Shown: positions 5,809-57,924 of the stretch, one piece after another
Layout of the letters: every line of letters begins with the position of its first letter
Position numbering within the stretch: the stretch's first letter is position 1
From: a bacterium
Lineage (GTDB): Bacteria; Patescibacteriota; Minisyncoccia; UBA6257; GWB1-50-10
Assembly: GCA_030647415.1 (NCBI GenBank)
Contig: JAUSKB010000016.1
Coordinates: 1 to 59,843, forward strand
Direction of reading: 5' to 3'
DNA: 59,843 nucleotides
Program-made: the position numbers and the translations under genes
The notes under the pieces: generated by a model
Databases searched by the model: none
What the model saw: only the letters and a program-made list of their open reading frames with translations
Told to the model about the DNA's origin: nothing

Positions 5809-6435
5809 TTAGTTGTCTGCAGTTCGTTGTGGGTCGTCGGTTGTTTGCTCGCCTCGCCCGCCTCGCCGAGACGTCGAGTCGAGGCTGGGCTGAAGCTCTG
5901 GCGAAGCGGGTTGTCGGTCACCCACCAACATCACCCGCGCGGGCCGGAGCACGTTGCCATGGAAGAGGAACCCAGCGCTCACCTCCTCCGCGACCGTCCC
6001 CGGCGGATCTCCGCCGGTTGGCGGACCCGCGGCCTCGCCGACCGCCTCATGCCGCGCGGGATCGAATGGAGTGCCGGGCGGCACCGTGAGGCGTTCGAGC
6101 CCCCGACGGGCGAGTACCGATTCGAGCTGGGACCGCACGAGCACCATCCCCTGCAATGCCCCCGCGTCATCCTTCACCGCCTGGACCCCGAGGTCAAAGC
6201 TGTCGACGACCGAGAGAAGGTCGCGCACCAGGTCCTCCGTCGAAAACTTCGCGAAGCGCTCGAGTCGCTCCGCCTCCTCCCGCTTGTGGTTTACGAGGTC
6301 GGCTTTTGCGCGCTTCCATCCGTCGAGGTACTCATCGCGCTCGGCGCGACACCGGGTGAGGTCGTCTGGCGTGACAGGCTCGCTACCGCCATTCGTAGCC
6401 GGTTCAGGATTCATATTTTGATCATCAGTAGGCAT
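5809..6435 (-). CDS. grpE: nucleotide exchange factor GrpE with an about 35-aa repeat-derived C-terminal tail
   Basis: GrpE core (...DLVRDLLSVVDSFDL...GNVLRPARVMLVG). It sits between hrcA and dnaK. The tail QPASPELQPSLDSTSRRGGRGEQTTDD... is encoded by repeat A1 plus spacer-like DNA. Confidence 0.9.
   Translation of the reverse strand: MPTDDQNMNPEPATNGGSEPVTPDDLTRCRAERDEYLDGWKRAKADLVNHKREEAERLERFAKFSTEDLVRDLLSVVDSFDLGVQAVKDDAGALQGMVLVRSQLESVLARRGLERLTVPPGTPFDPARHEAVGEAAGPPTGGDPPGTVAEEVSAGFLFHGNVLRPARVMLVGDRQPASPELQPSLDSTSRRGGRGEQTTDDPQRTADN
5848..5910. repeat. GC-rich palindromic element family A, truncated copy A1
   Basis: The core cctcgcccgcctcgccgagacgtcgagtcgaggctgggctg.agc...gcgaagcggg is shared with 16461-16519 and 40232-40290. 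Confidence 0.85.
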
Positions 6436-16080: not shown

Positions 16081-18036
16081 TCAGGTGCGCGGCTCGGTCG
16101 CCTGAGGCGACCGATCACGCATCCGGTGCTCATAGTACCACAGAAATACGTCGCGTGCTACCGGCGTGGTATTCATACTCCCTTCCCGTGAGTTTTCAAT
16201 GAGAATGAGCAGCGCGAGCTCCGGACGGTCCGACGGCGCGAATCCCACGAAGAACGCGTTGGTTCGCTGATTGTTCTCAATTTGTGCCGTCCCCGTCTTC
16301 CCGGCGACCGGGATCGGCAGGTCGTGGAGCGCGTACGAGGTGCCGTACGGCTGCCGAACGCCGTCCCGCATACCTTGCCGAACGACCTCGAGTGCCGGTC
16401 CCAATGTCGAACTGGAATCCTGTAGGATGATCGGCCCGCCTCGACTCGCTCGCTCGCTCGCCTCGCCCGCCTCGCCGAGACGTCGAGTCGAGGCTGGGCT
16501 GGAGCTCCGGCGAAGCGGGTCGGGCGAGGCGGGCCCGCCGACCGACTGGACGATCCGCGGCTGGTACCATATGCCGCCGTTCGCAACCGCGGCAATGTAG
16601 TTCAAGAGCGCGATGGGCGTGACCCCAAGGTCTCCCTGCCCGATTGAGACGTGATACGTGTCGCCGATGCGCCACGGGCGGTCGAAGGTGCGCTCGAACC
16701 ACTCCGGGTCCGGCAAAAAACCTTTCTCCTCCTCGTCAAGGTCGATGCCGGTCGGCTGGTCGAGACGGAACACCTGCCACCACCGCTTCAATGCCACGAT
16801 GCCCAACCCCCGCTGGGATTCGAATCCCCCGCCGACCTCGTAGAAGTAGACATTCGACGACCGCGCGAGCGCGCTCCGTACATCGACCCAACCGTGCGGT
16901 TTCCAGTCCGGGAATATGCTCGGCTGGTCCGGCACATACGGATTGGGAAGCTCAAGCTTTCCAGAAGAAAATATACTCGTGTCAGGGGTTACGATGCCAT
17001 CGGTCAGGGCTGCAGTCGCCATGAGCGGTTTGATGGTCGAGCCGGGACTGTACACACCGCTAACCGCGCGATTGAACAGGGGTTTCGTCGGGTCCGAGAG
17101 GTAGGAGGCGATCTTCCCGGGGTCGTACCCCGGCACGCTCGCGAGCGCGAGCACCTCGCCGTTCTGGGGATTGAGCGCAATCGCCGCGCCGCTCGTTCGG
17201 CCGAGCTCGGCGAGTCCCTGGCTCAACCGGTCAGAGAGGTACGTCTGAAAATCGGCATCGATGAATGTCCGAAGGTCCCCGCCGGCCGCCGAGTCCTGCG
17301 CCGCGCGTTCGCCGCGGACCTCGCCCCGAGCATCCCGGAGCGTCACCCGTTCGCCGTTCACCCCGCGGAGCACCGAGTCGTAGGAACCCTCGAGCCCTAC
17401 GCGACCGACCACATCGTTCACGATGAGCCGGTCATCAGCGTGGAGGTCGGCGTCGTTCGCAAGCCCCACATACCCGATGAGGTGCGAGAATGCGAGCGGG
17501 TTCGCGACTACACGGTTGAACGACGGGACCACGGAGACGCCGGGGAGCTTCGCGGATGCGACGGCGACCAACACATCCTGCGATGGATTCGTGGTAAGCA
17601 CCAGTTCGTCGGCCACGTTCCAGTTCTTTTTGGCGACGGTGTCGAACAGCGTCTGCTGGTCGCTTCCGAGGGCCTCACCAAGGCGCGTGAGTGTGGCCCG
17701 CCGCTCCTCCGGACTGGTCGGCAGATACCGAGGCGCAAGGATGATGTTGAACGACGGGACATTCTTCACGAGCGGCACGCCATACCGGTCATAGATGACG
17801 CCGCGCGGCGCAAGCTCCACGCGCGAATCGCTCATATTCGCGAGCGCACGCGCCGCAAACGCCTCATGTTCGACGAGTGAAAAATATCCGACTCGAATAC
17901 CGACGCCGACAACGACGAATATGCCGACAAGAAGCAGTCGCCGAAACAGGCGGTCCGTCACCGGAACCTCAAGGAGGTCGTCCTCGACAACTCGGTCGGT
18001 CAGAATATCTTCGAGGTTCAGCGGTTCTCGGGACAT
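16081..18036 (-). CDS. mrdA: penicillin-binding protein 2 (elongasome transpeptidase) carrying an in-frame repeat insert
   Basis: N-terminal TM helix, a PBP dimerisation region, and transpeptidase motifs (SPGSTIKP, SSN, KTGTA). Downstream of mreBCD. The insert ...GGPASPDPLRRSSSPASTRRLGEAGEASERASRGG... is element A2. Confidence 0.9.
   Translation of the reverse strand: MSREPLNLEDILTDRVVEDDLLEVPVTDRLFRRLLLVGIFVVVGVGIRVGYFSLVEHEAFAARALANMSDSRVELAPRGVIYDRYGVPLVKNVPSFNIILAPRYLPTSPEERRATLTRLGEALGSDQQTLFDTVAKKNWNVADELVLTTNPSQDVLVAVASAKLPGVSVVPSFNRVVANPLAFSHLIGYVGLANDADLHADDRLIVNDVVGRVGLEGSYDSVLRGVNGERVTLRDARGEVRGERAAQDSAAGGDLRTFIDADFQTYLSDRLSQGLAELGRTSGAAIALNPQNGEVLALASVPGYDPGKIASYLSDPTKPLFNRAVSGVYSPGSTIKPLMATAALTDGIVTPDTSIFSSGKLELPNPYVPDQPSIFPDWKPHGWVDVRSALARSSNVYFYEVGGGFESQRGLGIVALKRWWQVFRLDQPTGIDLDEEEKGFLPDPEWFERTFDRPWRIGDTYHVSIGQGDLGVTPIALLNYIAAVANGGIWYQPRIVQSVGGPASPDPLRRSSSPASTRRLGEAGEASERASRGGPIILQDSSSTLGPALEVVRQGMRDGVRQPYGTSYALHDLPIPVAGKTGTAQIENNQRTNAFFVGFAPSDRPELALLILIENSREGSMNTTPVARDVFLWYYEHRMRDRSPQATEPRT
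16433..16535. repeat. GC-rich palindromic element family A, full-length copy A2 (inside mrdA)
   Basis: 11-bp perfect termini ggcccgcctcg / cgaggcgggcc. The core is identical to A1/A3 (cctcgcccgcctcgccgagacgtcgagtcgaggctgggctg). Confidence 0.88.
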
Positions 18037-26481: not shown

Positions 26482-26482
26482 A

Positions 26483-26572
26483 ATTCCTAATTTCTAATTA
26501 CCAATTTCTAATTACCAATCACAAACCAGAAATCCCCATTGGATATTAGAAATTGGAAATTAGTAATTTTAT
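26483..26572. repeat. spacer-filling imperfect palindrome (ctaat/attag words)
   Basis: ctaatttctaattaccaatttctaattaccaat ... attggatattagaaattggaaattag. The arms are colinear. It fills the gap between the rseP start and the frr stop. Confidence 0.75.
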
Positions 26573-29161: not shown

Positions 29162-29318
29162 GAGTGGAGGAGAGTAATCAGTAATTGGTAAAAGGTAATT
29201 GGAGGCTCAAAACCAACATACGCGAGTTCCTATTACCTATTACTTGCTACTTATTACCTGTTACCAAGTACCTATTTCTATCCACCCCACTTTACCGCCA
29301 TAGCGCCGTTTTCGCAAG

Positions 29319-29697: not shown

Positions 29698-31125
29698 ATG
29701 CCCCTCCGGCTCCGGAAAACCTTCTTCTACCTCTGCCTCGTCGCCTTCCTCGCCGTCGGCGGCTACCTCGTACTCTTCACGCGGGGGCTCGTCTTCGACC
29801 TGCGGCACTTTGAGCTCGTCCCCACGGGCGCGCTCTACCTGAAATTCACCCCGTCCGACGCGACACTCCTCGTGAACGGCAAGGAGCGGCCGGCCGGCGC
29901 CAACATCCTCTCCCCCGGCACATTCGTGGACAACCTCGCGCCCGGCACATACACAGTCACCGTGACCCGTCCGAATTTTTCGACGTGGACAAAGGCGCTC
30001 ACGGTATCTTCGACAATGGTGACCGCCGCAAGCCACATCCGACTCTGGCCCACTCACGCCCCCGCCACACCCGTCGCCATCGATATCGCGAATTTTTGGC
30101 TCACCGGGGAAGGTGCGGTGCTCCAAGATGCCTCGGGGACGTTGCGGCTCGCGCGTCGAACCATTCGCGGCTCCACAGTCGTTGAAAGCGACCAGGGTTC
30201 ATCACGACTCCTGACTGAGGGGCAGGGCCAGTTCTACCTCATGGATCTCTCGGCGCCGGACACCACAACAAATATTTCGGCACTCTTCGTCTCCCTCCGT
30301 AGCAGGACTATTTCACCAGTTGGTCCTGTTGCAACCGGCACACTGGTACGGTCGGGTTCGACTACCTCAACAAACTTATTGCAAGCAAGCTCGCCGCAAG
30401 CCGAACACGTCCGCGCCGTCCTCCTGCATCCCTTCAGCGGACAGAAGCTTATTGTCGGCACCGATGCTGGCCTCTACGAGCTCGACACAAAAAAGGTTTC
30501 ACTCGAACGGCTCGCGAGCGTGGACCGATTCACCGCGCTCGCAAAGAGCGGCGGTGATGCGTTTATTATGAACGGTTCGAGCACGATGACAGTGGTGAAT
30601 CTTATCCTCCATACCAGCGTCACCTACGCGTTCCCGCTTTCTTCCGGGCTTCGGTCGCTCATCGCTTCGCCAAACGGGAGCTACCTCGCGGCGATTTCCG
30701 ATACCGGCGTCCTGTCGGTGCTGGACCGGACCGCCGGGACATTCACGCCCGTCGCGCACAACGTCGTAACTGCTACCATCGCCCCGGATAACACAGCGCT
30801 CATCTTTCTCTCAACCGACGGGCGCTTGAACCTGTACTACCTCTCGGACGTCGCCGGGGACGAGCTTTTCACTGCGGGGCAGCTCACGGCGAGCGCCGGC
30901 CCGCTGCCGGTGCCGCCGGCGGGAACGCTCACCGCGCTTCCAAGTTTCTCCGGAACGGTGCTGGTACAAGCCAGCGGCACGTTGCTTGCCGCGGAGACCG
31001 ACCTCCGCGGACAGGTCAACAGCACCGCCCTCGCCGCGCACGTCCGTTCGTTTGCGATTCGCGACACCACCCTCTACCTGCTCTCGACCGACGGTACCTT
31101 GAGCTCCATGAACCTCGCGCCGTGA
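29698..31125 (+). CDS. membrane-anchored PEGA-domain / beta-propeller-like protein
   Basis: N-terminal TM helix (FFYLCLVAFLAVGGYLVLF), a PEGA-like segment (ATLLVNGKERPAG...LAPGTYTVTVTRPNFSTW), and repetitive beta-rich sequence downstream. Confidence 0.6.
   Translation: MPLRLRKTFFYLCLVAFLAVGGYLVLFTRGLVFDLRHFELVPTGALYLKFTPSDATLLVNGKERPAGANILSPGTFVDNLAPGTYTVTVTRPNFSTWTKALTVSSTMVTAASHIRLWPTHAPATPVAIDIANFWLTGEGAVLQDASGTLRLARRTIRGSTVVESDQGSSRLLTEGQGQFYLMDLSAPDTTTNISALFVSLRSRTISPVGPVATGTLVRSGSTTSTNLLQASSPQAEHVRAVLLHPFSGQKLIVGTDAGLYELDTKKVSLERLASVDRFTALAKSGGDAFIMNGSSTMTVVNLILHTSVTYAFPLSSGLRSLIASPNGSYLAAISDTGVLSVLDRTAGTFTPVAHNVVTATIAPDNTALIFLSTDGRLNLYYLSDVAGDELFTAGQLTASAGPLPVPPAGTLTALPSFSGTVLVQASGTLLAAETDLRGQVNSTALAAHVRSFAIRDTTLYLLSTDGTLSSMNLAP
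31023..31125. repeat. 103-bp direct repeat, copy 1 (functional 3' end of 29698..31125)
   Basis: caccgccctcgccgcgcacgtccgttcgtttgcgattcgcgacaccaccctctacctgctctcgaccgacggtaccttgag... recurs at 31838-31940. Confidence 0.9.
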
Positions 31126-31837: not shown

Positions 31838-31940
31838 CACCGCCCTCGCCGCGCACGTCCGTTCGTTTGCGGTTCGCGACACCACCCTCTACCTGCTCTC
31901 GACCGACGGTACCTTGAGTTCCCTGGATCTCTCGCCGTAG
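31838..31940 (+). pseudogene. 103-bp direct repeat, copy 2 (orphaned 3' end of 29698..31125)
   Basis: Near-identical over the first approximately 80 bp, diverging in the last approximately 20 bp. It ends in its own in-frame stop (tag at 31938-31940). Confidence 0.85.
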
Positions 31941-32229: not shown

Positions 32230-33311
32230 GGGTTAAGGAAACTTTCGTGTGGGTAAGGACAGGCAAAAGCGCTTGATGTCGTCGAGCTCTTTTGCCTGTT
32301 TTGACAGCAAGATAGACATACGCAAGTCTATCTTGCATGAAACACCCATACTGCCCAGGCTGTTCGCGTCGCATGGAGCGCCACGGAAAAACAGCGGCGG
32401 GTACCGAACGGTACCGCTGTCCAAAGTGTCGGAAGACCACTGTCATCCACCGAACGGACACCCGGAAGCGGCATCTCCGCGACCACTTTGTCGACTGGCT
32501 CACCGGCACGGACTCAAAGCAAAAGATCGCCGAGAAGCTCGGCGTTTCCCGTCAGGCATTATCTAAGGAGTTCCAGCAGTTCTTCGGCGTTGGCCTCGAG
32601 CCGCCGATTCCCACCGAACTCACGGCGAGGATCCTCATCGTGGACGGCACGTACATTGAGGGGCGGGCACTCTGCGCTCTGGTCGCCGTGACGGAGCGGG
32701 ACCGGATCTTTTGGCGGTTCGCCACAGAAGAGCGCTACGGCACCTGGCTCGCCTTCCTCGAGTCGTTCCCGCCACCGAAGGTTGTTGTGGCCGACGGTCA
32801 GAAAGGCATGCAGCGCTTCGTGAAACATCACTGGCCTCAAACCGCCTTCCAGCGCTGTCACTTCCATCTGGTCATGCTCGTCACCCACTATCTCACCCGG
32901 AATCCCTCGGAAGAGGTGGGGCGAGACATTCTCGACCTCGTGCATCGTCTTAAGTATGTGAAAGCGCCTGCAGAGCGCGACCGGTGGCTCCTACTCCACC
33001 GAATCTGGGAAAAACGGTACGAAAAGGTTTTCGCCGAACGAACCGCAGGAGGAGTATACGCACATCGGAAGCTACGAAGCGTACGGTCGGTGCTCCGCCG
33101 CGCCACACCCCAGCTCTTCACGTATTTGGACTACCCAGGGTGCCCAAACACGACCAACCTCGTTGAGGGATGGGTGAATACCGCGATTGCGGAAGGCATC
33201 GGCAGGCACCGGGGACTCACCCTGGAAAAGAAGAAAACGCTCGTGTCGGTTATCCTCTCGAATTTGAAGCGGCCGACGAGAGAAAAACCCACACGAAAGT
33301 TTCCTTAACCC
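32230..33311 (+). mobile_element. IS1-family insertion sequence (single-ORF type), 1082 bp
   Basis: Perfect 25-bp TIRs gggttaaggaaactttcgtgtgggt (32230-32254 / 33287-33311). 8-bp TSD gcgcaacg (32222-32229 / 33312-33319). Confidence 0.9.
32337..33308 (+). CDS. IS1-family transposase
   Basis: The N-terminal zinc ribbon CPGCSRRMERHGKTAAGTERYRCPKCRKT mirrors IS1 InsA (CPSC..NGKSTAGHQRYLCSHCRKT). DDE-like region ILIVDGTY...VVADGQKG...TNLVEGW. Confidence 0.75.
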   Translation: MKHPYCPGCSRRMERHGKTAAGTERYRCPKCRKTTVIHRTDTRKRHLRDHFVDWLTGTDSKQKIAEKLGVSRQALSKEFQQFFGVGLEPPIPTELTARILIVDGTYIEGRALCALVAVTERDRIFWRFATEERYGTWLAFLESFPPPKVVVADGQKGMQRFVKHHWPQTAFQRCHFHLVMLVTHYLTRNPSEEVGRDILDLVHRLKYVKAPAERDRWLLLHRIWEKRYEKVFAERTAGGVYAHRKLRSVRSVLRRATPQLFTYLDYPGCPNTTNLVEGWVNTAIAEGIGRHRGLTLEKKKTLVSVILSNLKRPTREKPTRKFP

Positions 33312-36321: not shown

Positions 36322-36513
36322 GCGAATTTTTACTGAGCGAAGCGAAGGCTAAAAATTCAGCACCCCGCTTGATACGTTTGAAACGGAGGGCACTCCGGAT
36401 ACTCGACTGTATCCTATTTTGAGAAATATTGTCATTGGTTCGGCGATATCTAGCGGGGTAAGGTTTGATGGCTGTATTTTCTGCGCTTTCAGCTTGAAAA
36501 TCCAGACCAAGCC
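36322..36513. repeat. about 195-bp long-armed palindrome family F5, copy 1
   Basis: Left end gcgaatttttactgagcgaagcgaaggctaaaaattcagcaccccgc. Right end gcggggtaaggtttgatggctgtattttctgcgctttcagcttgaaaatccagaccaagccc. It abuts the rpsD stop. Confidence 0.85.
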
Positions 36514-36514
36514 C

Positions 36515-37114
36515 TTATCGGGCATAAAACTGGCTCACAACTGTTATGTCGAAGGGGAAATTCGTGTCGCTGGTGGTCGATGTTGCGAAAACGTTTCCGC
36601 TCATCGTGTCGGTATTGAGCTTGAGCCATGTGGGCGGCGTGAATTCTTTGAGGCGTTCCGAAAGCTCTTCAAACTGCTTCGAGTCGCGGGATTCGGGACG
36701 GATGGACACGGCGTCGCCGGGACGGAGCAGGTGTGATGCCACGCTCGAGCGGCGACCGTTCACCAGGATGTGCCCATGATTCACCAGCTGCCGCGCGATG
36801 CGCGGCGACTTCGCGAGCCCGAGCTGAAACACGACCTGGTCCAACCGATGCTCTAGCGTCTCGCGAATCGCCTGCGGCGACGGCTCGGCGAAAATCCGGC
36901 GCATCTGCCGGTCGGTGAGGCCGAAGTACCACTGAATCTTCTGCTTCTCCATGAGCTGCTTACCGTAGTCGGTTTTCGTCTGCCGCCGCTCGCCGTGCTG
37001 GCCCGGACGCGACGGCCGGCGTACCATGACGCACTTCGGTGAATTGCAACGGTCCGCCTTCACAAAGAGCTTCACGCCCAATGCCCGTTCTTGTTTTTCG
37101 GTGATTCGTTTCAT
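36515..37114 (-). CDS. rpsD: 30S ribosomal protein S4
   Basis: Zinc-knuckle N-terminus (ADRCNSPKCVMVRRPSRPGQHG) and an S4 RNA-binding domain (RLDQVVFQLGLAKSPRIARQLVNHGHILVNG). Confidence 0.95.
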   Translation of the reverse strand: MKRITEKQERALGVKLFVKADRCNSPKCVMVRRPSRPGQHGERRQTKTDYGKQLMEKQKIQWYFGLTDRQMRRIFAEPSPQAIRETLEHRLDQVVFQLGLAKSPRIARQLVNHGHILVNGRRSSVASHLLRPGDAVSIRPESRDSKQFEELSERLKEFTPPTWLKLNTDTMSGNVFATSTTSDTNFPFDITVVSQFYAR

Positions 37115-37310
37115 GCCGATTTTATTTGAGCGGAGCGAAATTTAAAATCGAGCACCCCGCACCACTTTTGCAGCAAGGTAGTGATTCAATGATGGTGTGT
37201 GTGATAGATGTCATATTTTTCAGTAATGATTCGTGAGGCAAAAGTGGTGCGGGGTAAGGTTTGGTGGCTGTATTTTCTGCGCCTTCGGCTTGAAAATCCA
37301 GACCAAGCCC
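37115..37310. repeat. long-armed palindrome family F5, copy 2
   Basis: Inner perfect 18-bp stem accccgcaccacttttgc / gcaaaagtggtgcggggt. The outer right arm is near-identical to 36453-36513. It exactly fills the gap between the rpsK stop and the rpsD start. Confidence 0.88.
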
Positions 37311-37763
37311 TTATACGCGTCGCCGCTTCTTCGGCCGTGGACCGTTGTGCGGGATGGGCGTGCAATCGCGCACCGCAGTGATATTGAAACCTTTAGCTGC
37401 GAGCGTCCGCATCGCGGAATCTCGGCCTTTGCCAATACCCCGCAACACGATTTCCACGTTCGTTGGCCCCGACCGCTTCACTTTCTCCGCAATCGCCTCC
37501 GCAACCTTCGAGGCCGCAAATGGCGTCGCCTTCTTCGGACCGGAAAACCCGAGCGACCCCGCGGACATCCATGCTACCACGCCACCCTTCAAATCGGTCA
37601 CGGTAATCATGGTGTTATTGAACGAAGTGTGGATGTAAATCTTGCCGGCGTCCAAGCGCTGCCTGGTGCTCTGCGCCGACTTGGCAGCCGCGGTTGCTTC
37701 GACCGCCTCGGATTCCTTGATGAGGTCGTCCTGGTTCTTCGTGATGGTCTTTTTCTTTCCCAT
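37311..37763 (-). CDS. rpsK: 30S ribosomal protein S11
   Basis: ...GKIYIHTSFNNTMITVTDLKGGVVAWMSAGSLGFSGPKKATPFAA... Confidence 0.95.
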   Translation of the reverse strand: MGKKKTITKNQDDLIKESEAVEATAAAKSAQSTRQRLDAGKIYIHTSFNNTMITVTDLKGGVVAWMSAGSLGFSGPKKATPFAASKVAEAIAEKVKRSGPTNVEIVLRGIGKGRDSAMRTLAAKGFNITAVRDCTPIPHNGPRPKKRRRV

Positions 37764-38161: not shown

Positions 38162-38163
38162 AA

Positions 38164-38274
38164 TGATACAAATATACTAATGGTACGAATGATACTAATC
38201 ATACGAATGGGAATTCGTTGGTGTTATTAGTATTATTCGTATCATTCGCATGAATTCGTATATTGGTATCGCAC
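38164..38274. repeat. palindrome family C, copy C3
   Basis: gatacaaatatactaatggtacgaatgatactaatcatacgaatggg ... ttagtattattcgtatcattcgcatgaattcgtatattggtatc. It fills the gap between the rpsM start and the rpmJ stop. Confidence 0.88.
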
Positions 38275-38387
38275 TAGCCCTGCCTCTGCTTATGCTTCTT
38301 GTTCACACAAATAACGAAGACACGACCACGGCGTCTGACCGTTTTGCATTTCATGCAGATTTTCTTTACTGATGAGCGTACCTTCAT
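38274..38387 (-). CDS. rpmJ: 50S ribosomal protein L36
   Basis: Not in the ORF track (too short). The minus strand encodes [37 protein letters not shown], canonical L36 in its usual place between infA and rpsM. Confidence 0.9.
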
Positions 38388-38490
38388 CCTGTTAGAGTTT
38401 TACACGCAATCCAACTGCGTGTAAAAAGTTTTTCGTTTGGCAAACAAGTTTCCATAGGATTCGTGGGTTTGTAAAACTCTAACAGGATGA
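38384..38490. repeat. TIR element family F4, copy 3
   Basis: Perfect 21-bp arms tcatcctgttagagttttaca / tgtaaaactctaacaggatga. The rpmJ ATG (38385-38387) lies inside the left arm. Confidence 0.9.
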
Positions 38491-38502
38491 ATGGAACCCT
38501 TT

Positions 38503-38727
38503 CTAGAACCTGCGGACGATTCTGCCACGACGGTCGTCGTACGGGGTCATCTCGACCATGACACGGTCGCCAGGTATGACGCGAATGCGGTGCAACTTCA
38601 TCTTCCCGGCAAGGTGTGCGAGGACCTCCTTTCCGGTCTTGTCCTCGGTAATGCGAAAGAGAAGCCCAGGTAATGCTTCCTGGACAGTTCCTTCAATCCG
38701 TACTATCTGTCCTTCGTCTTTTGGCAT
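38503..38727 (-). CDS. infA: translation initiation factor IF-1
   Basis: MPKDEGQIVRIEGTVQEALPGLLFRI...KMKLHRIRVIPGDRVMVEMTPYDDRRGRIVRRF. The tracked 38760 start is probably too long. Confidence 0.92.
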   Translation of the reverse strand: MPKDEGQIVRIEGTVQEALPGLLFRITEDKTGKEVLAHLAGKMKLHRIRVIPGDRVMVEMTPYDDRRGRIVRRF

Positions 38728-38898
38728 CCTGAAGCCTCGCACCGAATACGCAATACACAATACACATAGCTAAGTATACAAATGAGGCGGGAGATGTCAA
38801 GCACAACTGCAAGTAATAGGCAAAAGGTAATTGGTACTAGGGGAACCCAGCGCTTTTCTTATTACCTATTACTCATTACCTATTTCTCTCCATGAGCG

Positions 38899-40611
38899 CT
38901 ACTCCACCACGACCGTGATTTTCCGGGAATCGTTCGGCGCCCGGCGGACCCAGAACGGCCACAGATGCACGGTTGCCTTCGAGATGCCGGGAATGTCTGA
39001 AAGCATTGAGTTGAGCTTCGTTTCATCCTTGCCCAGTATGAGCGTGGTAAGTGCAGTGCTATCGAGCACATACCGGAGCGCTACCGTGCCGGATGCCGCG
39101 ACCGTGAGTGTACCACGATCGAAGTCGACTGTTGGCACCTCGAACGACGCATCGATCGAGTCCACGGTGAGCGACGAGGACTGCTGCGCCGCCGCACGCA
39201 CCGCCCGTGCGCCAACCGCCTCCTTGAACATGCGGTCATCAAAGACAATCTGCTTGAGCGACGCCTCACCGAACAACCGAAACGTACCGGAATCGTCCCC
39301 CGACGAGCGGAGGCGGCGCAGAACGACGAACCGCGTTGCGTCACGGAGCTCCGTAAAATGCTCATTTGCGGTGAGGAGCACCAGCTCGCTCACGAGCGCA
39401 TCACGGAGCGACGCATCGAGCGACTGCACCGCCCTCGCCTCCTCTTCCTTCGTGGGCGCTGCCCGTTCGCCCATGAAACCGCCCCGGAGTGCGTCCGGCG
39501 CCGCCGCGGTGAACGTATCATATTTCGGCGTACCCTGGAATCCCGGAATCCGCCATCCGTCGCTCGCAGGGACATTATGCGCCTCCCCGGCCGCATCAGC
39601 CGTCACCGAAACAGTCGTCGTGGACGATTGGATGGTTCCCCCAGAAACCCGTGCACCGGGAATGACCGATCGCTGGTTTAAGCGGAACACCGTGCCCTCC
39701 GGCGAGACAAACCGGGTCGTTGCGACCAGCACTTGCGGTTCCGAACTGAACGCGTTCGTCACCACGAGTGTTCCCGACGCCTTCGTGGCCACACGTTCCG
39801 TCCCTGCCGTCGGGAAGGTGAGCTCCAACGTGCGCCGTGCGTCGAACGACTGTGCAGGCAGCACGATGCGCGTGCCGGTACTCTCGGGCGCAGTGACACG
39901 GACCGAGGCGTCGATCAATTCCATGAACGGGATGGGAATCCGTGCGGCGCGAATCGTGACGGTCGCGCGCGGCACCACCGCGGTCGCCACCCACCAGCCT
40001 CCCCCGAGTACCGCGGCGGCGCATACGGAAATCACCAGGACGCGGAACCAGTGCGGTGACCGCTTGGGACGCTCCGGCTCCGGCTCTGGAACCGCGGCAG
40101 GTTGTGTGTCCTTCGTCGAACGTTCGCTGTTTTCAATTTCGAGTTTTGACTCTTCGCGCTCAACTTCTTGACGTTCGATATCAGACGTTAGACGATCTGC
40201 GGCAGATTCCACCGCTTGCGCATTCAATCCACCTCGCCCGCCTCGCCGAGACGTCGAGTCGAGGCTGGGCTGGAGCCGCGACGAAGCGGACCCGACGAGT
40301 GGGCGAGTCGAGGCGGGCCGTGCGATGATATCGGAAACAGCCCGCTCCTTCGAGTGGAAGAATGCGTTGCGGGATGGGATCCCGGCGAGCGACGCGAGTT
40401 CGAGGATATGGTCGTCCGCCGACTCGATCATGAGCTCCTTCCCCGCGTGCTCGGCTTCCCGGCGCAAGAGGTGGAAATTCTGCACCGAAACGCCAATGTC
40501 GGCTCCGGACGGGATGGTAAGCATAATCCTCGTGGAATCCTCGGTAAGGATCTTTTCCACGATTGCCGGGAGGCTATCCCCGCGCGCAATGAGTATTTTT
40601 TTCTCGGTCAT
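38899..40611 (-). CDS. hypothetical bitopic envelope protein carrying an in-frame family A element
   Basis: 570 aa: a cytoplasmic N-domain, one TM helix (VLVISVCAAAVLGGGWWV), and a large beta-rich C-domain. The insert ...SASSRLQPSLDSTSRRGGRGG... is element A3. Confidence 0.65.
   Translation of the reverse strand: MTEKKILIARGDSLPAIVEKILTEDSTRIMLTIPSGADIGVSVQNFHLLRREAEHAGKELMIESADDHILELASLAGIPSRNAFFHSKERAVSDIIARPASTRPLVGSASSRLQPSLDSTSRRGGRGGLNAQAVESAADRLTSDIERQEVEREESKLEIENSERSTKDTQPAAVPEPEPERPKRSPHWFRVLVISVCAAAVLGGGWWVATAVVPRATVTIRAARIPIPFMELIDASVRVTAPESTGTRIVLPAQSFDARRTLELTFPTAGTERVATKASGTLVVTNAFSSEPQVLVATTRFVSPEGTVFRLNQRSVIPGARVSGGTIQSSTTTVSVTADAAGEAHNVPASDGWRIPGFQGTPKYDTFTAAAPDALRGGFMGERAAPTKEEEARAVQSLDASLRDALVSELVLLTANEHFTELRDATRFVVLRRLRSSGDDSGTFRLFGEASLKQIVFDDRMFKEAVGARAVRAAAQQSSSLTVDSIDASFEVPTVDFDRGTLTVAASGTVALRYVLDSTALTTLILGKDETKLNSMLSDIPGISKATVHLWPFWVRRAPNDSRKITVVVE
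40232..40319. repeat. GC-rich palindromic element family A, copy A3
   Basis: Core identical to A1/A2. The right end gggcgagtcgaggcgggcc is the reverse complement of the A2 left end. Confidence 0.88.
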
Positions 40612-40612
40612 T

Positions 40613-40717
40613 TACCCTGTTAGAGTTTTACAGACACACAAATATCTCACAAAGTTTTGTTCGCGCAATAACAAATTTTTATATGCAATGGATTATGTGT
40701 AAAACTCTAACAGGGTA
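40613..40717. repeat. TIR element family F4, copy 4
   Basis: Perfect 20-bp arms taccctgttagagttttaca / tgtaaaactctaacagggta. The left arm starts 2 nt from the ATG of 38899..40611. Confidence 0.9.
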
Positions 40718-40734
40718 GACCCTTCTGTTTTGTA

Positions 40735-40756
40735 TGTAAACTTCTAACAGGGTGAA
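40735..40756. repeat. solo F4 arm
   Basis: tgtaaacttctaacagggtgaa, an extra right-type arm 18 nt after copy 4. Confidence 0.75.
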
Positions 40757-40773
40757 TGTTCTTTATAATACAA

Positions 40774-42063
40774 CTATGGTTGCGCGATAAGCCACCGGGC
40801 GCGGCGGCGCAGAAGCTGGTTTAAGATACCATACTCGCGGCGGGCATACGGGTACATCACCGCGGCAAACGTCTCCGCAGAAAACGTAGTGCTCGCCTCG
40901 CTCCGCCATGGAGGGGCGGGGCGGGGCGGGCCTTCGCCCCGCCAAAGCGGGCTCCGGCACCGCGAAGGCGGGGCGTTCCCGACGACGGTAAACCCCCGTG
41001 CGGAACAGACCTGATCCGCCGAGATGCAGGAGATGGGCGCATGAGACAGGAGCGTCTGAAACCGCGGCACCGAGGCTCGAAAATGGACCAAGCGGTCACC
41101 CGCGGACCTATCCACCGCTGCATCATGGGCAGGTTTGCTGCCAGAAACTTTTATTGAGGTGAGCTTCCGCTTCCCGGAAAGTCCGTCAATGTACTCCAGT
41201 AGTTGCGTAGCTTTCAGCCGAAGCACCCGGTCGACCGCACGCGCAAATCGCTCTGATGTCCTGCCATGGGCGACCGCGGTGAGTAGTTCCCGTGCCACCA
41301 GCGGGGAGCTCATGAAATGTTCCGCAACCGCAGTAATGACCGAGGCGGCACCCCAGTCAAATTCGCGCAGAAACGCCAGATCTTCATCGCGCCGGATAAA
41401 CACGGTCGTTCGCTGTTCGCCGACATCGAGCAGGTACCCTCCCGAACCCTTGAGGAGGGTGCTCGCGAGGAGGCTCCCCCGCTCGGCGACGGTAAGTTCG
41501 CCGACCCAGCCGTGGAATCGATTGAACGCTTCCGCGAGCGTTCGGGGCACGAACGTACCGCGGAACCCCACCGCGAGCACACCGCCCCGGAACCCGATCG
41601 GATTCAAGAGCCGATGCCCATCAAGGGAGACGTTAATCACCTCGATTGCGGCGAGCGTGAGATCGAGGTCGGCGATGTCCATTTTTTTCGCCGCCCAGGA
41701 CCGGTACCGATTCAGGAACTCCCACAGCGCCTTAAAGACGAGCGTGTCGAGCTCCCCCTCGTCGATGGGACGCTCGATGACCTCACGCCGCACGCGCGCG
41801 ATACTCTCGACGGTCGTTGCGCGACGGCCGTCGAGCACCACGACACCTCGGTCGAATGGAAATAGTCGCCGGCGAACGCTCCGAAAGTCATTCGCGTGGT
41901 ACGGCGTCCCAAGCGCAACCCGTTGCTCCACATGGTCAACGGTCGCCGGCGTGACCGTGAATCCGCGCCCCGCCTCGTCGGAGTCCGCCTCCTCAATGAC
42001 GATAAAATGCTCCCGAGCGCGTTTCAGGATGGTCCCAATCCGTTCTCCAAGTGTCGCCATCAC
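40774..42063 (-). CDS. actin-fold FtsA/PilM-like protein
   Basis: ...GGYLLDVGEQRTTVFIRRDEDLAFLREFDWGAASVITAVAEHF... is the typical phosphate-2/adenosine region of FtsA/PilM. The C-terminus has a basic amphipathic tail. Confidence 0.55.
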   Translation of the reverse strand: MMATLGERIGTILKRAREHFIVIEEADSDEAGRGFTVTPATVDHVEQRVALGTPYHANDFRSVRRRLFPFDRGVVVLDGRRATTVESIARVRREVIERPIDEGELDTLVFKALWEFLNRYRSWAAKKMDIADLDLTLAAIEVINVSLDGHRLLNPIGFRGGVLAVGFRGTFVPRTLAEAFNRFHGWVGELTVAERGSLLASTLLKGSGGYLLDVGEQRTTVFIRRDEDLAFLREFDWGAASVITAVAEHFMSSPLVARELLTAVAHGRTSERFARAVDRVLRLKATQLLEYIDGLSGKRKLTSIKVSGSKPAHDAAVDRSAGDRLVHFRASVPRFQTLLSHAPISCISADQVCSARGFTVVGNAPPSRCRSPLWRGEGPPRPAPPWRSEASTTFSAETFAAVMYPYARREYGILNQLLRRRARWLIAQP

Positions 42064-42073
42064 CGTGCTTCTA

Positions 42074-42182
42074 GTTTACCCTGTTAGGGTTTTACACACA
42101 AATTTTTCCGGATAAAAACCTATGTTCTGACACAAAAAAAACACCAGGACGCGGATTGCTCGTAAAACCCTAACGGGGTATA
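42074..42182. repeat. TIR element family F4, copy 5
   Basis: Arms gtttaccctgttagggttttaca / cgtaaaaccctaacggggtatac. It lies 11 nt upstream of the ATG at 42063. Confidence 0.85.
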
Positions 42183-42250
42183 CCGTAGACAGTAACGCGT
42201 ATACAGTCACCATCTTCCTGTGTCTCTCGTTTCTTCTCTCTTGTCGCTGT

Positions 42251-43609
42251 CTACGCTTCCTCCGCCGCGATGAGCCGCTTTGCGGCGTCCGCGGGGATCG
42301 AGTACCGCTCCCGCGACGCATTGATGATCTCTTGCCTGAACGAGCGGTGCGGCGGCGGCAGGACTCGTAGTGTCTCCGCCGAAAACGGGTCGTAGGTGTC
42401 GCCGTCGATGGTCATCTTCACATAGAACTGCTGCATGCCGAGATTGATCATGTCCTTTGCCTTAAAGACCGGCGTCATTTCCGCCTCGAGCTCTGCGGCA
42501 TCCTGCCCGCCGACACGAAAAATGATCATAGAACCGACGTTCCCCAGAACCGCGCTCCGGACCCCCGCGATGAGTTGACCCATGTACTGGTGCGCCATCG
42601 TGAGGCACAGCCCATACTTCCGTGCCTCGGAAAGAAGGTTCTCGAACGTCTCCGTGACCAAGTTGTGGAACTCGTCCATATAGAGGTAGAAGTCGCGCCG
42701 GTCGCGCTCCGCGAGCGCGGCGCGCGCCATACCTGCCTGCTTGATCTTCGTGATGAACATAGAACCGAAGAAGCTCGCGTTTTCCTCGCCGAGCTTCCCC
42801 TTCGAAAGGTTGATGAGGATGATCTTCCTCTCGTTCATAAGTTGCTCCAGGTTCACCTTGTTCTCCTTCTGGCCAAAGATGTTCCGAAGAAGCGGGTTCG
42901 AGAGAAACTGGCCGAGTTTGTTCACCAGCGGGATGATGGCATCAGTGTCAAACTTCTCGGACCAATCAGCGAACTCGATGGCCCAGAAGCGCTTCACCAT
43001 GTCATCCTCGATGTACTCTACCACCTTCTGCCGGTAGTTCCGGTCCTTCAGGAGCATGATCATCCCCCGCATCGTCGCGTGCGGGTAGTCGAGGAGCGCG
43101 AGGCAGGCGAACCGGAAGACGTGCTCGAGCCGCGGCGTCCAGTTCGCGCCGAACTGCTTCTCCATGACCTCGATGAGCCCTTGCGTCAGCTGGTGTTTGA
43201 ATGAGGGGTCGACGTTTGCGAGCGGATTGAATGAGGCGGGGAACTCAGTGTCCGCGGGGTTAATGATGCAAACATCCCGCATGCGCTCCTCGGGAATGAA
43301 GTCGAGCATCGCGTCGATGACGTCGCCGTGCGGGTCCATAAGACAGAACCCGTGACTGTACGCAACGTCCTGCCGCATCATGAGTTCCAGGAGCTTTGAC
43401 TTCCCCACGCCGCTCTTCCCGATGACGTAGAGGTGCCGCTGCCGATCCGTGCGCTTGATACCGAAGATGAATTTCTTCTCCTCGAGCGCGGCGACGTAGT
43501 TCGTGCGCCCGATGAACGAGACCTCGGCCGGCGGCACGCGGCCGTAGACCGGCAATTCCGGTGGCGGCGGCGCGTACTTGATGAGTTGGATCTTGGAGCT
43601 ATTGGCCAT
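42251..43609 (-). CDS. VirD4/TraG/TraD-like P-loop ATPase (T4SS coupling-protein-like)
   Basis: Walker A YVIGKSGVGKSKLL, Walker B FYLYMDEFHN, and the C-terminal motif GNVGSMIIFRVGGQDA. No TM segment. Confidence 0.65.
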   Translation of the reverse strand: MANSSKIQLIKYAPPPPELPVYGRVPPAEVSFIGRTNYVAALEEKKFIFGIKRTDRQRHLYVIGKSGVGKSKLLELMMRQDVAYSHGFCLMDPHGDVIDAMLDFIPEERMRDVCIINPADTEFPASFNPLANVDPSFKHQLTQGLIEVMEKQFGANWTPRLEHVFRFACLALLDYPHATMRGMIMLLKDRNYRQKVVEYIEDDMVKRFWAIEFADWSEKFDTDAIIPLVNKLGQFLSNPLLRNIFGQKENKVNLEQLMNERKIILINLSKGKLGEENASFFGSMFITKIKQAGMARAALAERDRRDFYLYMDEFHNLVTETFENLLSEARKYGLCLTMAHQYMGQLIAGVRSAVLGNVGSMIIFRVGGQDAAELEAEMTPVFKAKDMINLGMQQFYVKMTIDGDTYDPFSAETLRVLPPPHRSFRQEIINASRERYSIPADAAKRLIAAEEA

Positions 43610-43617
43610 GCAACTAT

Positions 43618-43720
43618 GATACTAATATACGAATGGTACGAATGATACTAATGGATACGAATGGGAATCTATTGGTAGTATTCGTATCATTCGAATGCAT
43701 TCGTATATTGGTATCACGCT
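43618..43720. repeat. palindrome family C, copy C4
   Basis: gatactaatatacgaatggtacgaatgatactaatggatacgaatggg ... gtagtattcgtatcattcgaatgcattcgtatattggtatc. It fills the gap between the ATPase start and the upstream stop. Confidence 0.88.
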
Positions 43721-45626: not shown

Positions 45627-45733
45627 GCGTGTAACGGCTGTGTACCCATTATAGACTCATTGCCCATGAAACGGAAAACTCCCTGTGGGGAGTCTTCTCG
45701 TGTTTTCCTATTACTTTTTACCTCTTACTATCC

Positions 45734-46759
45734 TTACGCCTCCTTCGTGTGGTAGCGGCCGTCCTCGAGGCGCTTGAAAAACTTCCGGTTCTGGAGCGCC
45801 AGAAGAATGGTATTTTCCTTCAGGAACCGTTCCTGGTTCACCCGCGTCACTACCTCGTGCGCCTGAAGCGGCCCGTTCTTCTTCAAGAGCCGGGCAACCA
45901 CCTCGCGGACCGTACCGGGCTGGTACCCCTGCTCGCGAAGTCCGTAGATGCCGCGACCCACCAGCACGAACCGGTCGTCCTTAATGAGCTCGTTGTGCAC
46001 CGTCTGCACGTGCGCAGTCTTCTTATCGATGCCGAGCTTCGAAATGTTTTTCGAAATGTCCTCGAAGTGAAGCGGCGAGGAACTCTTTCGGAGCACCAGG
46101 TACGCCTTGTCGCGGACCGTCTTCGGAGCGATTTCGGGCCACTCGACAAGCCCGACATCGCCGAACACGTTCACACCGAAGTGCTTGGGGATGGAGAGGA
46201 GGTGCGCCGACGCGGGGTCCTTCGCCACCGCGAGGTACACCTTCCGGTCGAAGAACTCCTGCCGGTCGGTGGTCTTGAAAACGCTCGTCGCGTGCTTCAC
46301 AAACTCCGTGAACTTCTTGTGCGCCGCATCGTCCGCATACCAGTACGCGTTCGTTGTGTCGTCCTCTTTTCGGTACGACGGCGCACCGGCCGCGAACAGT
46401 ACGAACCGAATCTTTTGGTCGAGGTGCTTCGTATTCGAGCCGGCGAAAAACTTCTGCCGGATGTCCTTGATGAATTCCACATCGCTCCGGACCCCGCCGA
46501 CCGCGGCGAGGTGCGCCACGACCAACTGCACGAACGGTCCCTCCGACACCTTCAGTGCGCCACCGAGCTTTTTCATCGCCTGCTCCTGGATCTGGCGGAC
46601 GCGCTCGCGCGTGATGCCGAGTTCGTCCCCGACGGCCTGCAGCGTCGCCGCCTTCCCGGTCTTCAGACCGAAGCGCGACAAAAGAACCTTCCGCTGGTTC
46701 TGCGTGAAGTCCGTGAAGACCGTTTCGAGAAATTGATCGACGTTCTTAATCATAGGCAT
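45734..46759 (-). CDS. sigma-70 region-4-like HTH plus HARE-HTH domain protein
   Basis: N-terminus RKVLLSRFGLKTGKAATLQAVGDELGITRERVRQIQEQAMKKL (sigma r4). C-terminus ...IKDDRFVLVGRGIYGLRE (HARE-HTH-type motif). Confidence 0.6.
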   Translation of the reverse strand: MPMIKNVDQFLETVFTDFTQNQRKVLLSRFGLKTGKAATLQAVGDELGITRERVRQIQEQAMKKLGGALKVSEGPFVQLVVAHLAAVGGVRSDVEFIKDIRQKFFAGSNTKHLDQKIRFVLFAAGAPSYRKEDDTTNAYWYADDAAHKKFTEFVKHATSVFKTTDRQEFFDRKVYLAVAKDPASAHLLSIPKHFGVNVFGDVGLVEWPEIAPKTVRDKAYLVLRKSSSPLHFEDISKNISKLGIDKKTAHVQTVHNELIKDDRFVLVGRGIYGLREQGYQPGTVREVVARLLKKNGPLQAHEVVTRVNQERFLKENTILLALQNRKFFKRLEDGRYHTKEA

Positions 46760-55783: not shown

Positions 55784-55832
55784 GATGTATGTTTAGTAGT
55801 AATACGATACTAGGTTCATTTCACAACCACAA

Positions 55833-56222: not shown

Positions 56223-56306
56223 GAAGCAGCGCGCCATCCGTCAATCGACGGAGGCACGCTTCGTTTTTTCGCATGCACCTTTTGTACCGATTCAGAGCGC
56301 CGACGT

Positions 56307-56348
56307 CGAATATACCATAATCGACGGCCGTCGATTATGGTATATTCG
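56307..56348. repeat. 42-bp perfect palindrome between convergent genes
   Basis: cgaatataccataatcgacgg|ccgtcgattatggtatattcg. Confidence 0.9.
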
Positions 56349-56433
56349 GTGAATAGCCAGATTGTACGCTGGAAAAAGAGGGAGCTACTGTGAGGTGCGG
56401 CCTTCCTTCGCACGAGCCTGCCGACAAGCGGAG

Positions 56434-57789: not shown

Positions 57790-57924
57790 ATTGTACTATA
57801 GTGTACACGAACCCCGCTGTAGCACTACTGGCGCTTGCTAGAGAGCTCCGCTTTTGATATCCTCCTGAACGCATAGTGTTTTACTTGTTACCTGTTACTT
57901 TTTACCCGTTACCTCTTACCACCC

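What the first reader, a model, noticed from the sequence alone, without database searches (positions are those of the whole stretch)
40232..40319. Family A element copy in the 570-aa envelope protein, read in a different frame from the PBP2 copy
This copy has the same core, and its right end gggcgagtcgaggcgggcc is the reverse complement of the left end of the PBP2 copy. It is translated as SASSRLQPSLDSTSRRGGRGGLNAQ in the cytoplasmic linker preceding the TM helix.

Three copies in 60 kb, all inside ORFs, suggests either tolerance of or selection for ORF insertion.
Basis: seen in the sequence. Interest (0 to 1): 0.7.

Follow-up and report, generated by a model that had tools for sequence, protein, structure and literature searches.

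The report
Translated palindromic DNA repeat inside genes
A short GC-rich hairpin-forming DNA repeat sits in frame inside at least three unrelated genes of this ultra-small (Patescibacteria) bacterium, is read as extra disordered protein in two different reading frames, and has a 38-base core identical to a copy in a gene of an unrelated Melainabacterium; it looks like the "selfish DNA in genes" known from Rickettsia, here in new hosts.

Summary
Window 40232-40319 is one of three copies of a GC-rich repeat (also ~5848-5912 and 16433-16535). They share an invariant 40-nt imperfect palindrome. All lie inside minus-strand ORFs and are read in two frames (LQPSLDSTSRRGGRG in GrpE and the 570-aa protein; SSSPASTRRLGEAGE in PBP2). 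The conservation is therefore in the DNA, not the protein.

Homologues lack the segment, and AlphaFold models it as disordered: a PBP2 loop, and the linker before the TM helix of the 570-aa protein. Two further copies exist elsewhere. One is in the C-terminal tail of a NYN protein in a groundwater genome of unknown identity. The other is in an SDR gene of a 35%-GC Melainabacterium, with a 38-nt identical core forming a 76%-GC island.

All five copies have the same orientation relative to the host gene. Substitutions avoid the core. No consistent target duplication and no partner transposase were found.

Best reading (0.68): a non-autonomous MITE/REP-type palindromic repeat, translated in frame where tolerated, working like Rickettsia palindromic elements. 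It is a new member of a known kind. The surprising part is the cross-phylum identity. "Selection for ORF insertion" is unnecessary, because about 90% of the window is ORF.

The parts
40232..40319 (+). Family A copy 3, the finding: 88 nt, 76% GC, inside the 570-aa ORF, encoding residues 98-127. The element is written on the + strand; the host gene is on the - strand.
40233..40272 (+). Invariant 40-nt core (imperfect palindrome GCCCGCCTCG...CGAGGCTGGGC around GACGTC) of copy 3
   Evidence: (hairpin -13.2 kcal/mol as ssDNA, z = -2.9)
40303..40319 (+). Right terminal arm of copy 3 (GCGAGTCGAGGCGGGCC), the inverted partner of the left end of copy 2. It is itself an inverted partial copy of the core motif.
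16433..16535 (+). Family A copy 2: 103 nt, 79% GC, 11-nt perfect terminal inverted repeat GGCCCGCCTCG/CGAGGCGGGCC. It lies in PBP2 (MrdA) residues 501-535. GGCCCGCC recurs at 16433 and 16532, 99 nt (33 codons) apart.
   Evidence: (I8)
5848..5912 (+). Family A copy 1: core-only form, about 65 nt. It encodes GrpE residues 175-196 in a C-terminal extension that runs on through former spacer DNA to a stop about 30 nt before dnaK.
38899..40611 (-). Host gene of copy 3: 570-aa Patescibacteria-specific membrane protein (N-terminal alpha/beta domain, disordered linker, TM helix, beta-rich C-terminal part). It is syntenic with a TrwB/VirD4-like ATPase gene.
16081..18036 (-). Host gene of copy 2: PBP2/MrdA transpeptidase, 651 aa
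5809..6435 (-). Host gene of copy 1: GrpE, 208 aa; the Pfam domain ends at residue 170

Best explanation
Window 40232-40319 is one copy of a small (about 60-105 nt), GC-rich, hairpin-forming, non-coding-by-origin repeat. It is a non-autonomous mobile or 'selfish' element of the MITE/REP type that has landed inside protein-coding DNA and is translated as part of the host protein. The part kept unchanged is a 38-40-nt imperfect palindrome. The variable arms are partial inverted copies of the same motif (GCCCGCCTCG[A/C]C), giving nested hairpins. I infer that the core is the cis-acting site recognised by a trans-acting enzyme encoded elsewhere, possibly a single-strand-specific one, given the hairpins and the strand bias. 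New copies would then persist only where they do no harm. They must add a multiple of three bases, carry no stop codon (no frame of the 57-nt core has one in copies 2 and 3), and fall in segments that tolerate extra hydrophilic, disordered residues. Which of the three frames is read depends on the codon phase of the insertion point, which would explain the two peptides observed. Shown: DNA-level identity in two frames, absence from homologues, predicted disorder, presence in independent assemblies and in three genomes of two phyla, and substitutions confined to outside the core. Inferred: that it moves, how it moves, what moves it, and that it was transferred horizontally.
For: 1. Three copies share 40 identical bases, with none expected by chance. 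2. The same strand is read in two frames, giving unrelated peptides in GrpE and the 570-aa protein versus PBP2, NYN and SDR. 3. The PBP2 alignments to 15 nearest representatives leave 23-35 residues unmatched exactly at residues 501-535, and most HMMER hits split at about residue 499. PDB MrdA shows the same. 4. AlphaFold gives PBP2 a mean pLDDT of 84.7, with the only internal low-confidence stretch at 503-525. In the 570-aa protein the element lies in the disordered linker 87-185. 5. In GrpE and NYN the element lies beyond the complete Pfam domain. In the SDR the PDB alignments break at 209-211 and resume at about 261, a gap that holds the 25-residue island. 6. The fifth copy is a 74-nt island of 76% GC in a gene that is otherwise 37% GC, in a Melainabacterium. 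Its core is identical over 38 nt, it is identical in the four loci read (L014-L017, from ENA, NCBI and JGI assemblies), and it is the only GC-rich island in about 40.7 kb. 7. All five variable sites among the four 57-nt copies (window copies 1-3 and the NYN copy) lie at positions 41-49 (P about 0.0015, with a post-hoc boundary). The Melainabacterial copy diverges only outside the 38-nt core. 8. The core folds as an imperfect hairpin (z about -2.9). 9. All three interior copies preserve the downstream frame. This has a 1-in-27 chance if length were unconstrained, which argues that the element is translated rather than removed from the RNA. 10. Independent assemblies (Logan, ENA, JGI, NCBI) carry the copies.
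Against: 1. No consistent target-site duplication was found. Copy 2 has an 8-nt direct repeat that overlaps its own inverted repeat, copy 1 has a 6-nt repeat, and copy 3 and the Melainabacterial copy have none. 2. No partner transposase was found. The only transposase in the window is an IS256/MULE-type IS with unrelated ends. 3. No empty-site allele or presence/absence polymorphism was seen: all assemblies of each population carry the copy. 4. Only five copies are known, and the Melainabacterium has one in about 40 kb, which is not the picture of a proliferating element. 5. Terminal inverted repeats are clear only in copy 2 and partly in copy 3. 6. Whole-element folding energies are not better than shuffles.
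Confidence: 0.68

Rival explanations
1. It is a host-used nucleic-acid signal rather than selfish DNA. The conserved hairpin would act in the mRNA (ribosome pausing, RNase processing, stability) or in DNA (for example a recognition sequence for DNA uptake or recombination), and is kept for that reason.
For: All five copies have the same orientation relative to the host gene's coding strand (1 in 16 by chance). The core is invariant while its flanks vary. The hairpin is more stable than shuffles. The window encodes ComEC DNA-uptake machinery.
Against: The copies sit at unrelated positions in unrelated genes (chaperone cofactor, transpeptidase, membrane protein, NYN, SDR), which argues against a common regulatory role. 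There is no terminator- or promoter-like context and no Rfam family. Density (3 per 60 kb; 1 per more than 40 kb) is far below that of known uptake sequences, and 38 nt is much longer than those (own knowledge of DUS/USS). Most genes of the window are on the same strand, so part of the orientation bias may simply reflect replication strand. Sharing one regulatory signal between Patescibacteria and Melainabacteria is hard to motivate.
Confidence: 0.12
2. It is not transposed. The same abundant foreign or episomal hairpin DNA is occasionally captured as filler during break repair or by illegitimate recombination, and copies are homogenised by gene conversion.
For: There is no consistent target duplication. 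Arms differ at every site and look like locally generated inverted extensions. There is a single isolated copy in the Melainabacterium. The element contains the GCGAAGC/GCCGAAGGC mini-hairpin motifs, known from the literature (own knowledge) to be unusually stable in single-stranded DNA.
Against: Five independent captures of the same 38-nt core in three genomes require a common, persistent source, and none was found in virus, phage or plasmid collections. Gene conversion cannot explain identity between phyla. Substitutions avoiding the core point to constraint on the element itself.
Confidence: 0.12
3. It is a protein-level module: a shared low-complexity linker peptide selected for a function in the proteins.
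For: The encoded peptides are hydrophilic and sit in linkers, loops and tails.
Against: The same DNA is read in two frames, giving unrelated peptides, while the DNA stays identical over 38-40 nt. Homologues lack it. Synonymous sites would have drifted if selection were on the peptide.
Confidence: 0.03
4. It is an assembly or sequencing artefact (chimeric joins at a contaminant or adapter-like sequence).
For: The repeat breaks the Logan contig. The identical core in unrelated MAGs could suggest a technical sequence.
Against: Reading frames are preserved across every copy. The same junctions occur in independent assemblies from Logan, ENA, JGI and NCBI. The flanks on both sides belong to the same host gene.
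Confidence: 0.02

Closest known systems
Rickettsia palindromic elements (RPEs; Ogata et al. 2000, as summarised in PMC10969869)
   Same: Both are short palindromic repeats found inside unrelated housekeeping genes. They are in frame, translated as extra peptide, and lie at positions compatible with the protein fold. No transposase is encoded in the element.
   Different: The sequences are unrelated. This element is shorter (about 60-105 nt against about 100-150 bp). It is GC-rich where Rickettsia is AT-rich. It is read in at least two frames. The hosts are Patescibacteria, a groundwater genome of unknown identity and a Melainabacterium, with an identical core across phyla. Only five copies are known so far, against dozens per genome for RPEs.
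REP / REPIN (BIME) elements mobilised by RAYT (Y1, IS200-like) transposases
   Same: The unit is a 20-40-nt imperfect palindrome. Larger forms are built from inverted pairs of the unit (copy 2 = motif, core, motif). Orientation is strand-biased. There are no classical target duplications.
   Different: REPs are by definition extragenic and typically number in the hundreds. They usually carry a conserved 5' GTAG-type tetranucleotide. A RAYT gene flanked by REPs is expected, and none was seen in the window.
Bacterial MITEs found intragenically (ERIC, Correia, Anabaena MITEs; reviewed in PMC10969869)
   Same: Small size, inverted ends, several copies, no coding capacity of their own, and occasional in-frame fusions with host ORFs.
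   Different: Those families have defined TIRs, target-site duplications and a cognate IS. Here the TIRs are clear in one copy only, target-site duplications are inconsistent, and no cognate IS is known.
Mobile GC clusters and 'byp' elements of yeast mitochondria (own knowledge: Lang et al. 2014 and earlier GC-cluster work)
   Same: Both are short GC-rich palindromic insertions standing out in AT-rich coding DNA, as in the Melainabacterial SDR gene.
   Different: Those are in organelle genomes, and byps are skipped by the ribosome. Here the frame is preserved and there is no stop codon, so read-through translation suffices.

Membership tests
MITE (miniature inverted-repeat transposable element) | Small size (under about 300 bp) and no coding capacity of its own | tested here: met
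   The copies are 65-103 nt. They are open in the host's frame but have no start or own ORF.
MITE (miniature inverted-repeat transposable element) | Terminal inverted repeats | tested here: inconclusive
   Copy 2 has an 11-nt perfect TIR. In copy 3 the inner motif pairs with the right arm. Copy 1, the NYN copy and the Melainabacterial copy have only the internal palindrome.
MITE (miniature inverted-repeat transposable element) | Target-site duplication of fixed length | tested here: inconclusive
   There is an 8-nt repeat at copy 2 (overlapping the TIR), a 6-nt repeat at copy 1, and none at copy 3 or in L010.
MITE (miniature inverted-repeat transposable element) | Multiple dispersed copies in a genome | tested here: met
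   There are three copies in 60 kb of one genome. Whole-genome copy number is unknown.
MITE (miniature inverted-repeat transposable element) | Cognate autonomous IS with the same ends | tested here: not met
   The only IS in the window (32230-33311) has unrelated 25-bp TIRs. Nothing was found in virus, phage or plasmid collections. The rest of the genomes could not be searched.
REP/REPIN | Imperfect palindrome of 20-40 nt as the repeated unit, also occurring as inverted doublets | tested here: met
   There is a 38-40-nt core hairpin, with inverted partial copies of its motif in copies 2 and 3 and in L010.
REP/REPIN | Extragenic location | tested here: not met
   All five copies lie inside ORFs.
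REP/REPIN | Associated RAYT (Y1 transposase) gene | tested here: inconclusive
   None was found among about 55 window ORFs scanned with Pfam. The remainder of the genome is not available.
Rickettsia palindromic elements | Sequence membership in one of the RPE families | not tested
   No RPE sequences were available to compare. The GC-rich core and the non-rickettsial hosts make sequence homology implausible. The likeness claimed is functional only.
Rickettsia palindromic elements | In-frame insertion in unrelated genes at structurally tolerant sites | tested here: met
Structured RNA families (Rfam) | Match to a curated covariance model | tested here: not met
   There were no hits at gathering thresholds in the window. 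Around copy 2 only sub-threshold miRNA-hairpin noise appeared.

The most novel reading that the evidence does not exclude
The element is an actively exchanged, cross-phylum mobile hairpin. A single trans-acting (perhaps single-strand DNA, HUH/Y1-type) enzyme carried by an unseen mobile element would recognise the invariant 38-nt core and paste it into coding DNA of co-resident aquifer bacteria as different as Patescibacteria and a 35%-GC Melainabacterium. Shared copies would then mark physical DNA traffic between ultra-small epibionts and their neighbours or hosts.
Probability: 0.2. Interest if true: 0.8.

Novelty: new member of a known kind. Interest (0 to 1): 0.52.

Why it matters
Patescibacteria have tiny, streamlined genomes and are usually thought to be poor in repeats. 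My literature search found no paper that combines MITEs with this group. Here a housekeeping region carries a repeat that lengthens essential proteins (PBP2, GrpE). This matters in three ways. First, it warns annotators and structure predictors that odd low-complexity loops in these proteins can be selfish DNA. Second, it gives a concrete case of protein-sequence innovation by repeat insertion outside Rickettsia. Third, because the same 38-nt core lies in a Melainabacterial gene, it offers a sequence tag for tracing recent DNA exchange between unrelated bacteria. The Melainabacterial and NYN copies come from neighbouring JGI and ENA record series, and one NYN-organism assembly is labelled groundwater (PRJNA268031). 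That they share an environment with each other, or with the window organism, is my inference and was not checked.

Tried and rejected
1. Peptide searches for more host proteins failed. A concatenated six-frame translation returned nothing, although a local phmmer test showed that PBP2 should have scored E about 1e-9, so the word index was swamped. A sharpened two-frame profile returned 'no candidate shares three 5-residue words'.

2. DNA scans gave little. The 28-mer found 0 hits in GTDB representative genomes and one metagenome contig. The 24-mer left half found six genome hits, of which five are chance matches in high-GC genomes encoding LARLAETS with no extension. Two virus scans, one plasmid and one phage BLAST, and a literature search for the sequence string all gave nothing.

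3. No DNA-level empty site was found. The closest relative of the 570-aa protein is only 43% identical. Its locus (L003/L004) is syntenic but too distant, and the two assemblies are 99.99% identical. All assemblies of the NYN organism and of the Melainabacterium carry the copy.

4. Walking about 40.7 kb along the Melainabacterial contig found no second copy and no candidate transposase.

5. An nhmmer profile of the 57-nt core found no degenerate copies in the window or in the fetched loci.

6. Whole-element folding is not better than shuffles; only the core is.

7. The following were rejected: intein or intron (far too short; frame preserved), DGR template/variable repeat (copies identical, no A-specific changes), integron attC (no RYYYAAC/GTTRRRY ends), CRISPR (no array), and terminator or promoter.

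Full report
**The observation**

The stretch at 40232-40319 belongs to a three-copy repeat family in the window.
- A 38-mer taken from it matches at 5859, 16468 and 40239, all on the + strand, with at most one mismatch. There were no matches in 100 dinucleotide-preserving shuffles.
- The repeat finder groups 5837-5911, 16446-16520 and 40217-40291 as family D5.
- Alignment shows an invariant 40-nt core, CTCGCCCGCCTCGCCGAGACGTCGAGTCGAGGCTGGGCTG, at 5853-5892, 16462-16501 and 40233-40272. It is followed by a 17-nt tail (GRAGCYNYGRCGAAGCGG) that holds every difference between copies.
- The right end of the finding (40301-40319), reverse-complemented, matches the left end of the PBP2 copy (16433-16451) at 18 of 19 bases.

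All three copies lie in minus-strand ORFs:
- GrpE, 5809-6435;
- PBP2/MrdA, 16081-18036;
- a 570-aa Patescibacteria-type membrane protein, 38899-40611.

GrpE and the 570-aa protein read the element as ...LQPSLDSTSRRGGRG.... PBP2 reads the same strand one base out of phase, as ...SSSPASTRRLGEAGE.... The 57-nt core has no stop codon in any of the six frames in copies 2 and 3. A G-to-A change gives copy 1 a TGA in one non-coding (+ strand) frame.

A Logan assembly of run SRR13727527 reproduces window 38235-40261 exactly and ends inside the core. This is what a real repeat does to a k-mer assembler.

**The organism**

Homologues of the 570-aa protein carry the names Candidatus Jorgensenbacteria, Parcubacteria or Patescibacteria. 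The best is only 43% identical. The window is a 58% GC stretch of housekeeping genes (DnaJ/DnaK/GrpE, MreBCD-PBP2, ribosomal proteins, RpoA, ComEC, MurC-like, MnmA). About 90% of it is covered by ORFs.

**An insertion, not an ancestral sequence**

- PBP2. The 15 nearest representatives (41-52% identity) all have a gap of 23-35 residues exactly where the element lies (residues 501-535), and most HMMER hits split at about residue 499. PDB MrdA structures align the same way. The residues left once the element is removed (PRIVQSVG | GPIILQDSSSTLGPALEVV) resemble the short-loop homologues. That implies an insert of 33-34 codons, which equals the 99-nt spacing of the GGCCCGCC repeat at 16433 and 16532.
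- AlphaFold, PBP2. The mean pLDDT is 84.7, with a single internal low-confidence stretch at 503-525.
- The 570-aa protein. AlphaFold gives a confident N-terminal domain (1-86), a disordered linker (87-185, pLDDT below 50) holding element residues 98-127, a helix at 187-212, and then a confident beta-rich part. The linker is hypervariable among homologues, most of which have gaps opposite the element.
- GrpE. The Pfam domain is complete at residue 170. The element encodes residues 175-196 of a tail that reads on through AT-rich, spacer-like DNA to a stop about 30 nt before dnaK.

**Copies elsewhere**

- NYN protein. A metagenome scan with a 28-mer found one contig (L001). There the same 57-nt element lies in the C-terminal tail of a NYN-domain protein, in the PBP2 frame, just upstream of the PNPase gene. 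The same population occurs at 99.9% identity in three ENA assemblies, one of them labelled groundwater, PRJNA268031. Its taxonomy is unknown.
- Melainabacterium. A 24-mer scan of GTDB representative genomes gave six hits, five of them chance matches in high-GC genomes. The sixth is a Candidatus Melainabacteria MAG with 35% GC. Its SDR/FabG-like gene contains a 74-nt island of 76% GC in a gene that is otherwise 37% GC. The island has 38 bases identical to the core, is read in the PBP2 frame, and sits in the loop where PDB homologues are about 35 residues shorter. Past the core this copy differs by a 5-nt gap and several mismatches. It is identical in the four loci read (ENA, NCBI and JGI assemblies) and is the only GC-rich island in about 40.7 kb.

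**Anatomy**

- The core is an imperfect hairpin, GCCCGCCTCG-(loop around GACGTC)-CGAGGCTGGGC. As single-stranded DNA it folds at -13.2 kcal/mol, z = -2.9.
- The motif GCCCGCCTCG[A/C]C recurs in inverted orientation in the arms of copies 2 and 3 (12 matches in the window against 2.3 expected), so the long copies are nested hairpins. The Melainabacterial copy has its own small hairpins on each side.
- Whole elements do not fold better than shuffles of the same composition.
- Among the four 57-nt copies (window copies 1-3 and the NYN copy), all five variable sites lie at positions 41-49 (P about 0.0015, with a boundary chosen after the fact).
- Together with the divergence pattern of the Melainabacterial copy, this indicates constraint on the core itself. 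The constraint cannot come from the host proteins, because the frames differ.
- All five copies have the same orientation relative to the host coding strand (1 in 16 by chance). Most genes of the window share that strand, so I cannot separate transcription from replication as the cause.
- All three interior copies keep the downstream frame (1 in 27 by chance). This argues that the element is translated rather than removed from the RNA.

**Interpretation**

The best-supported reading is a non-autonomous palindromic repeat of the MITE/REP kind that persists inside genes where an in-frame, stop-free, hydrophilic addition is tolerated. That is how Rickettsia palindromic elements behave (review PMC10969869).

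What is missing for a firm 'mobile element' call:
- a regular target duplication;
- a partner transposase. The only one in the window belongs to an unrelated complete IS;
- a polymorphic empty site.

The rivals are given in their own section. The main two are a host-used hairpin signal (supported mainly by the orientation bias) and repeated capture of a hairpin DNA without transposition (supported by the irregular ends and by the lone Melainabacterial copy). A protein-level motif and an artefact are excluded by the frame difference and by the independent assemblies.

With about 90% ORF coverage, three of three copies in ORFs is the expected outcome.

**Novelty and score**

In-frame palindromic repeats are a known kind. 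This is a new sequence family in new hosts. I found no paper linking MITEs with Patescibacteria and none containing the core sequence. The unexpected element is the 38-nt identity between phyla with very different base composition. This points to recent horizontal spread, or to strong constraint by a shared trans-acting factor. I rate it as a new member of a known kind, interest about 0.5, with a more novel reading (an actively exchanged cross-phylum hairpin element) at about 20% probability.

Noticed in passing
window 32230-33311: A complete insertion sequence: 25-bp perfect terminal inverted repeats (GGGTTAAGGAAACTTTCGTGTGGGT), an 8-bp target duplication (GCGCAACG), and a 323-aa MULE/Mutator (IS256-like) transposase with an N-terminal zinc ribbon (32337-33308, +). 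Its ends are unrelated to family A.
   Followed up: yes
window 8235-8346, 18060-18171, 38383-38494, 40611-40722, 42075-42185 (plus a solo arm at 40736-40753): An AT-rich intergenic palindromic module of about 110 nt: two inverted copies of ACCCTGTTAGAGTTTTAC spaced 85 nt apart (11 matches against 0.04 expected). At least three of the five sites lie directly upstream of minus-strand gene starts (PBP2, the 570-aa gene, the 429-aa gene). It could be a promoter or leader module, or a second MITE family. The 18-mer had no exact match in any of the 17 loci fetched by then.
   Followed up: partly
window 54410-55783 (-), insert at 55244-55326: MnmA carries another in-frame palindromic insert of unrelated sequence: 18-nt perfect inverted arms GGGTGCGGCACCGCGCTT / AAGCGCGGTGCCGCACCC around about 47 nt. 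It adds about 20 residues absent from PDB MnmA structures (I20, 109, 110). This suggests the genome holds several families of hairpin inserts in genes.
   Followed up: partly
window 40774-42063 (-), patch at ~40890-40965: A second GC-rich, hairpin-prone in-frame patch (GGGGCGGGGCGGGGCGGGCCTTCGCCCCGCC...) in the 429-aa conserved hypothetical protein. About 25 residues (…APPSRCRSPLWRGEGPPRPAPPWR…) are absent from the 49%-identical sister orthologue L003:9042-10004.
   Followed up: partly
window 6437-6531, 26480-26570, 29171-29284, 38812-38892, 45700-45734, 54497-54602, 57881-57925: Intergenic AT-rich arrays built on a 7-nt period (TTACCNN / GGTAANN), often as inverted pairs around gene boundaries (repeat finder D1, D2, D10, I9, I12, I14, I15).
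   Followed up: no
window 13984-14088, 15532-15598 (inverted), 38162-38275, 43616-43720: Another AT-rich intergenic repeat family (ATGATACNAATATACTAATGGTACGAATGATAC...), 83-95% identical between sites. The Logan contig L002 ends inside the copy at 38235.
   Followed up: no
window 31023-31123 / 31838-31938; 20554-20654 / 21946-22046; 36453-36518 / 37249-37314: Pairs of 66-101-nt direct repeats (82-95% identical) spaced 0.8-1.4 kb apart, flanking short genes near the lower-GC stretch at 22-26 kb. They were not examined.
   Followed up: no
window 38899-43609 and L003 7435-11671: The 570-aa protein is part of a conserved gene trio: a TrwB/VirD4-like coupling ATPase (42251-43609), the 429-aa hypothetical, and the 570-aa protein, followed by infA. 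The order is the same in the sister genome. This may relate to the Patescibacterial type IV secretion or competence apparatus.
   Followed up: partly
window 56307-56348: A perfect 42-nt palindrome (CGAATATACCATAATCGACGGCCGTCGATTATGGTATATTCG; the repeat finder I17, two overlapping 26-nt arms) near the 5' end of the ORF at 55793-56413.
   Followed up: no
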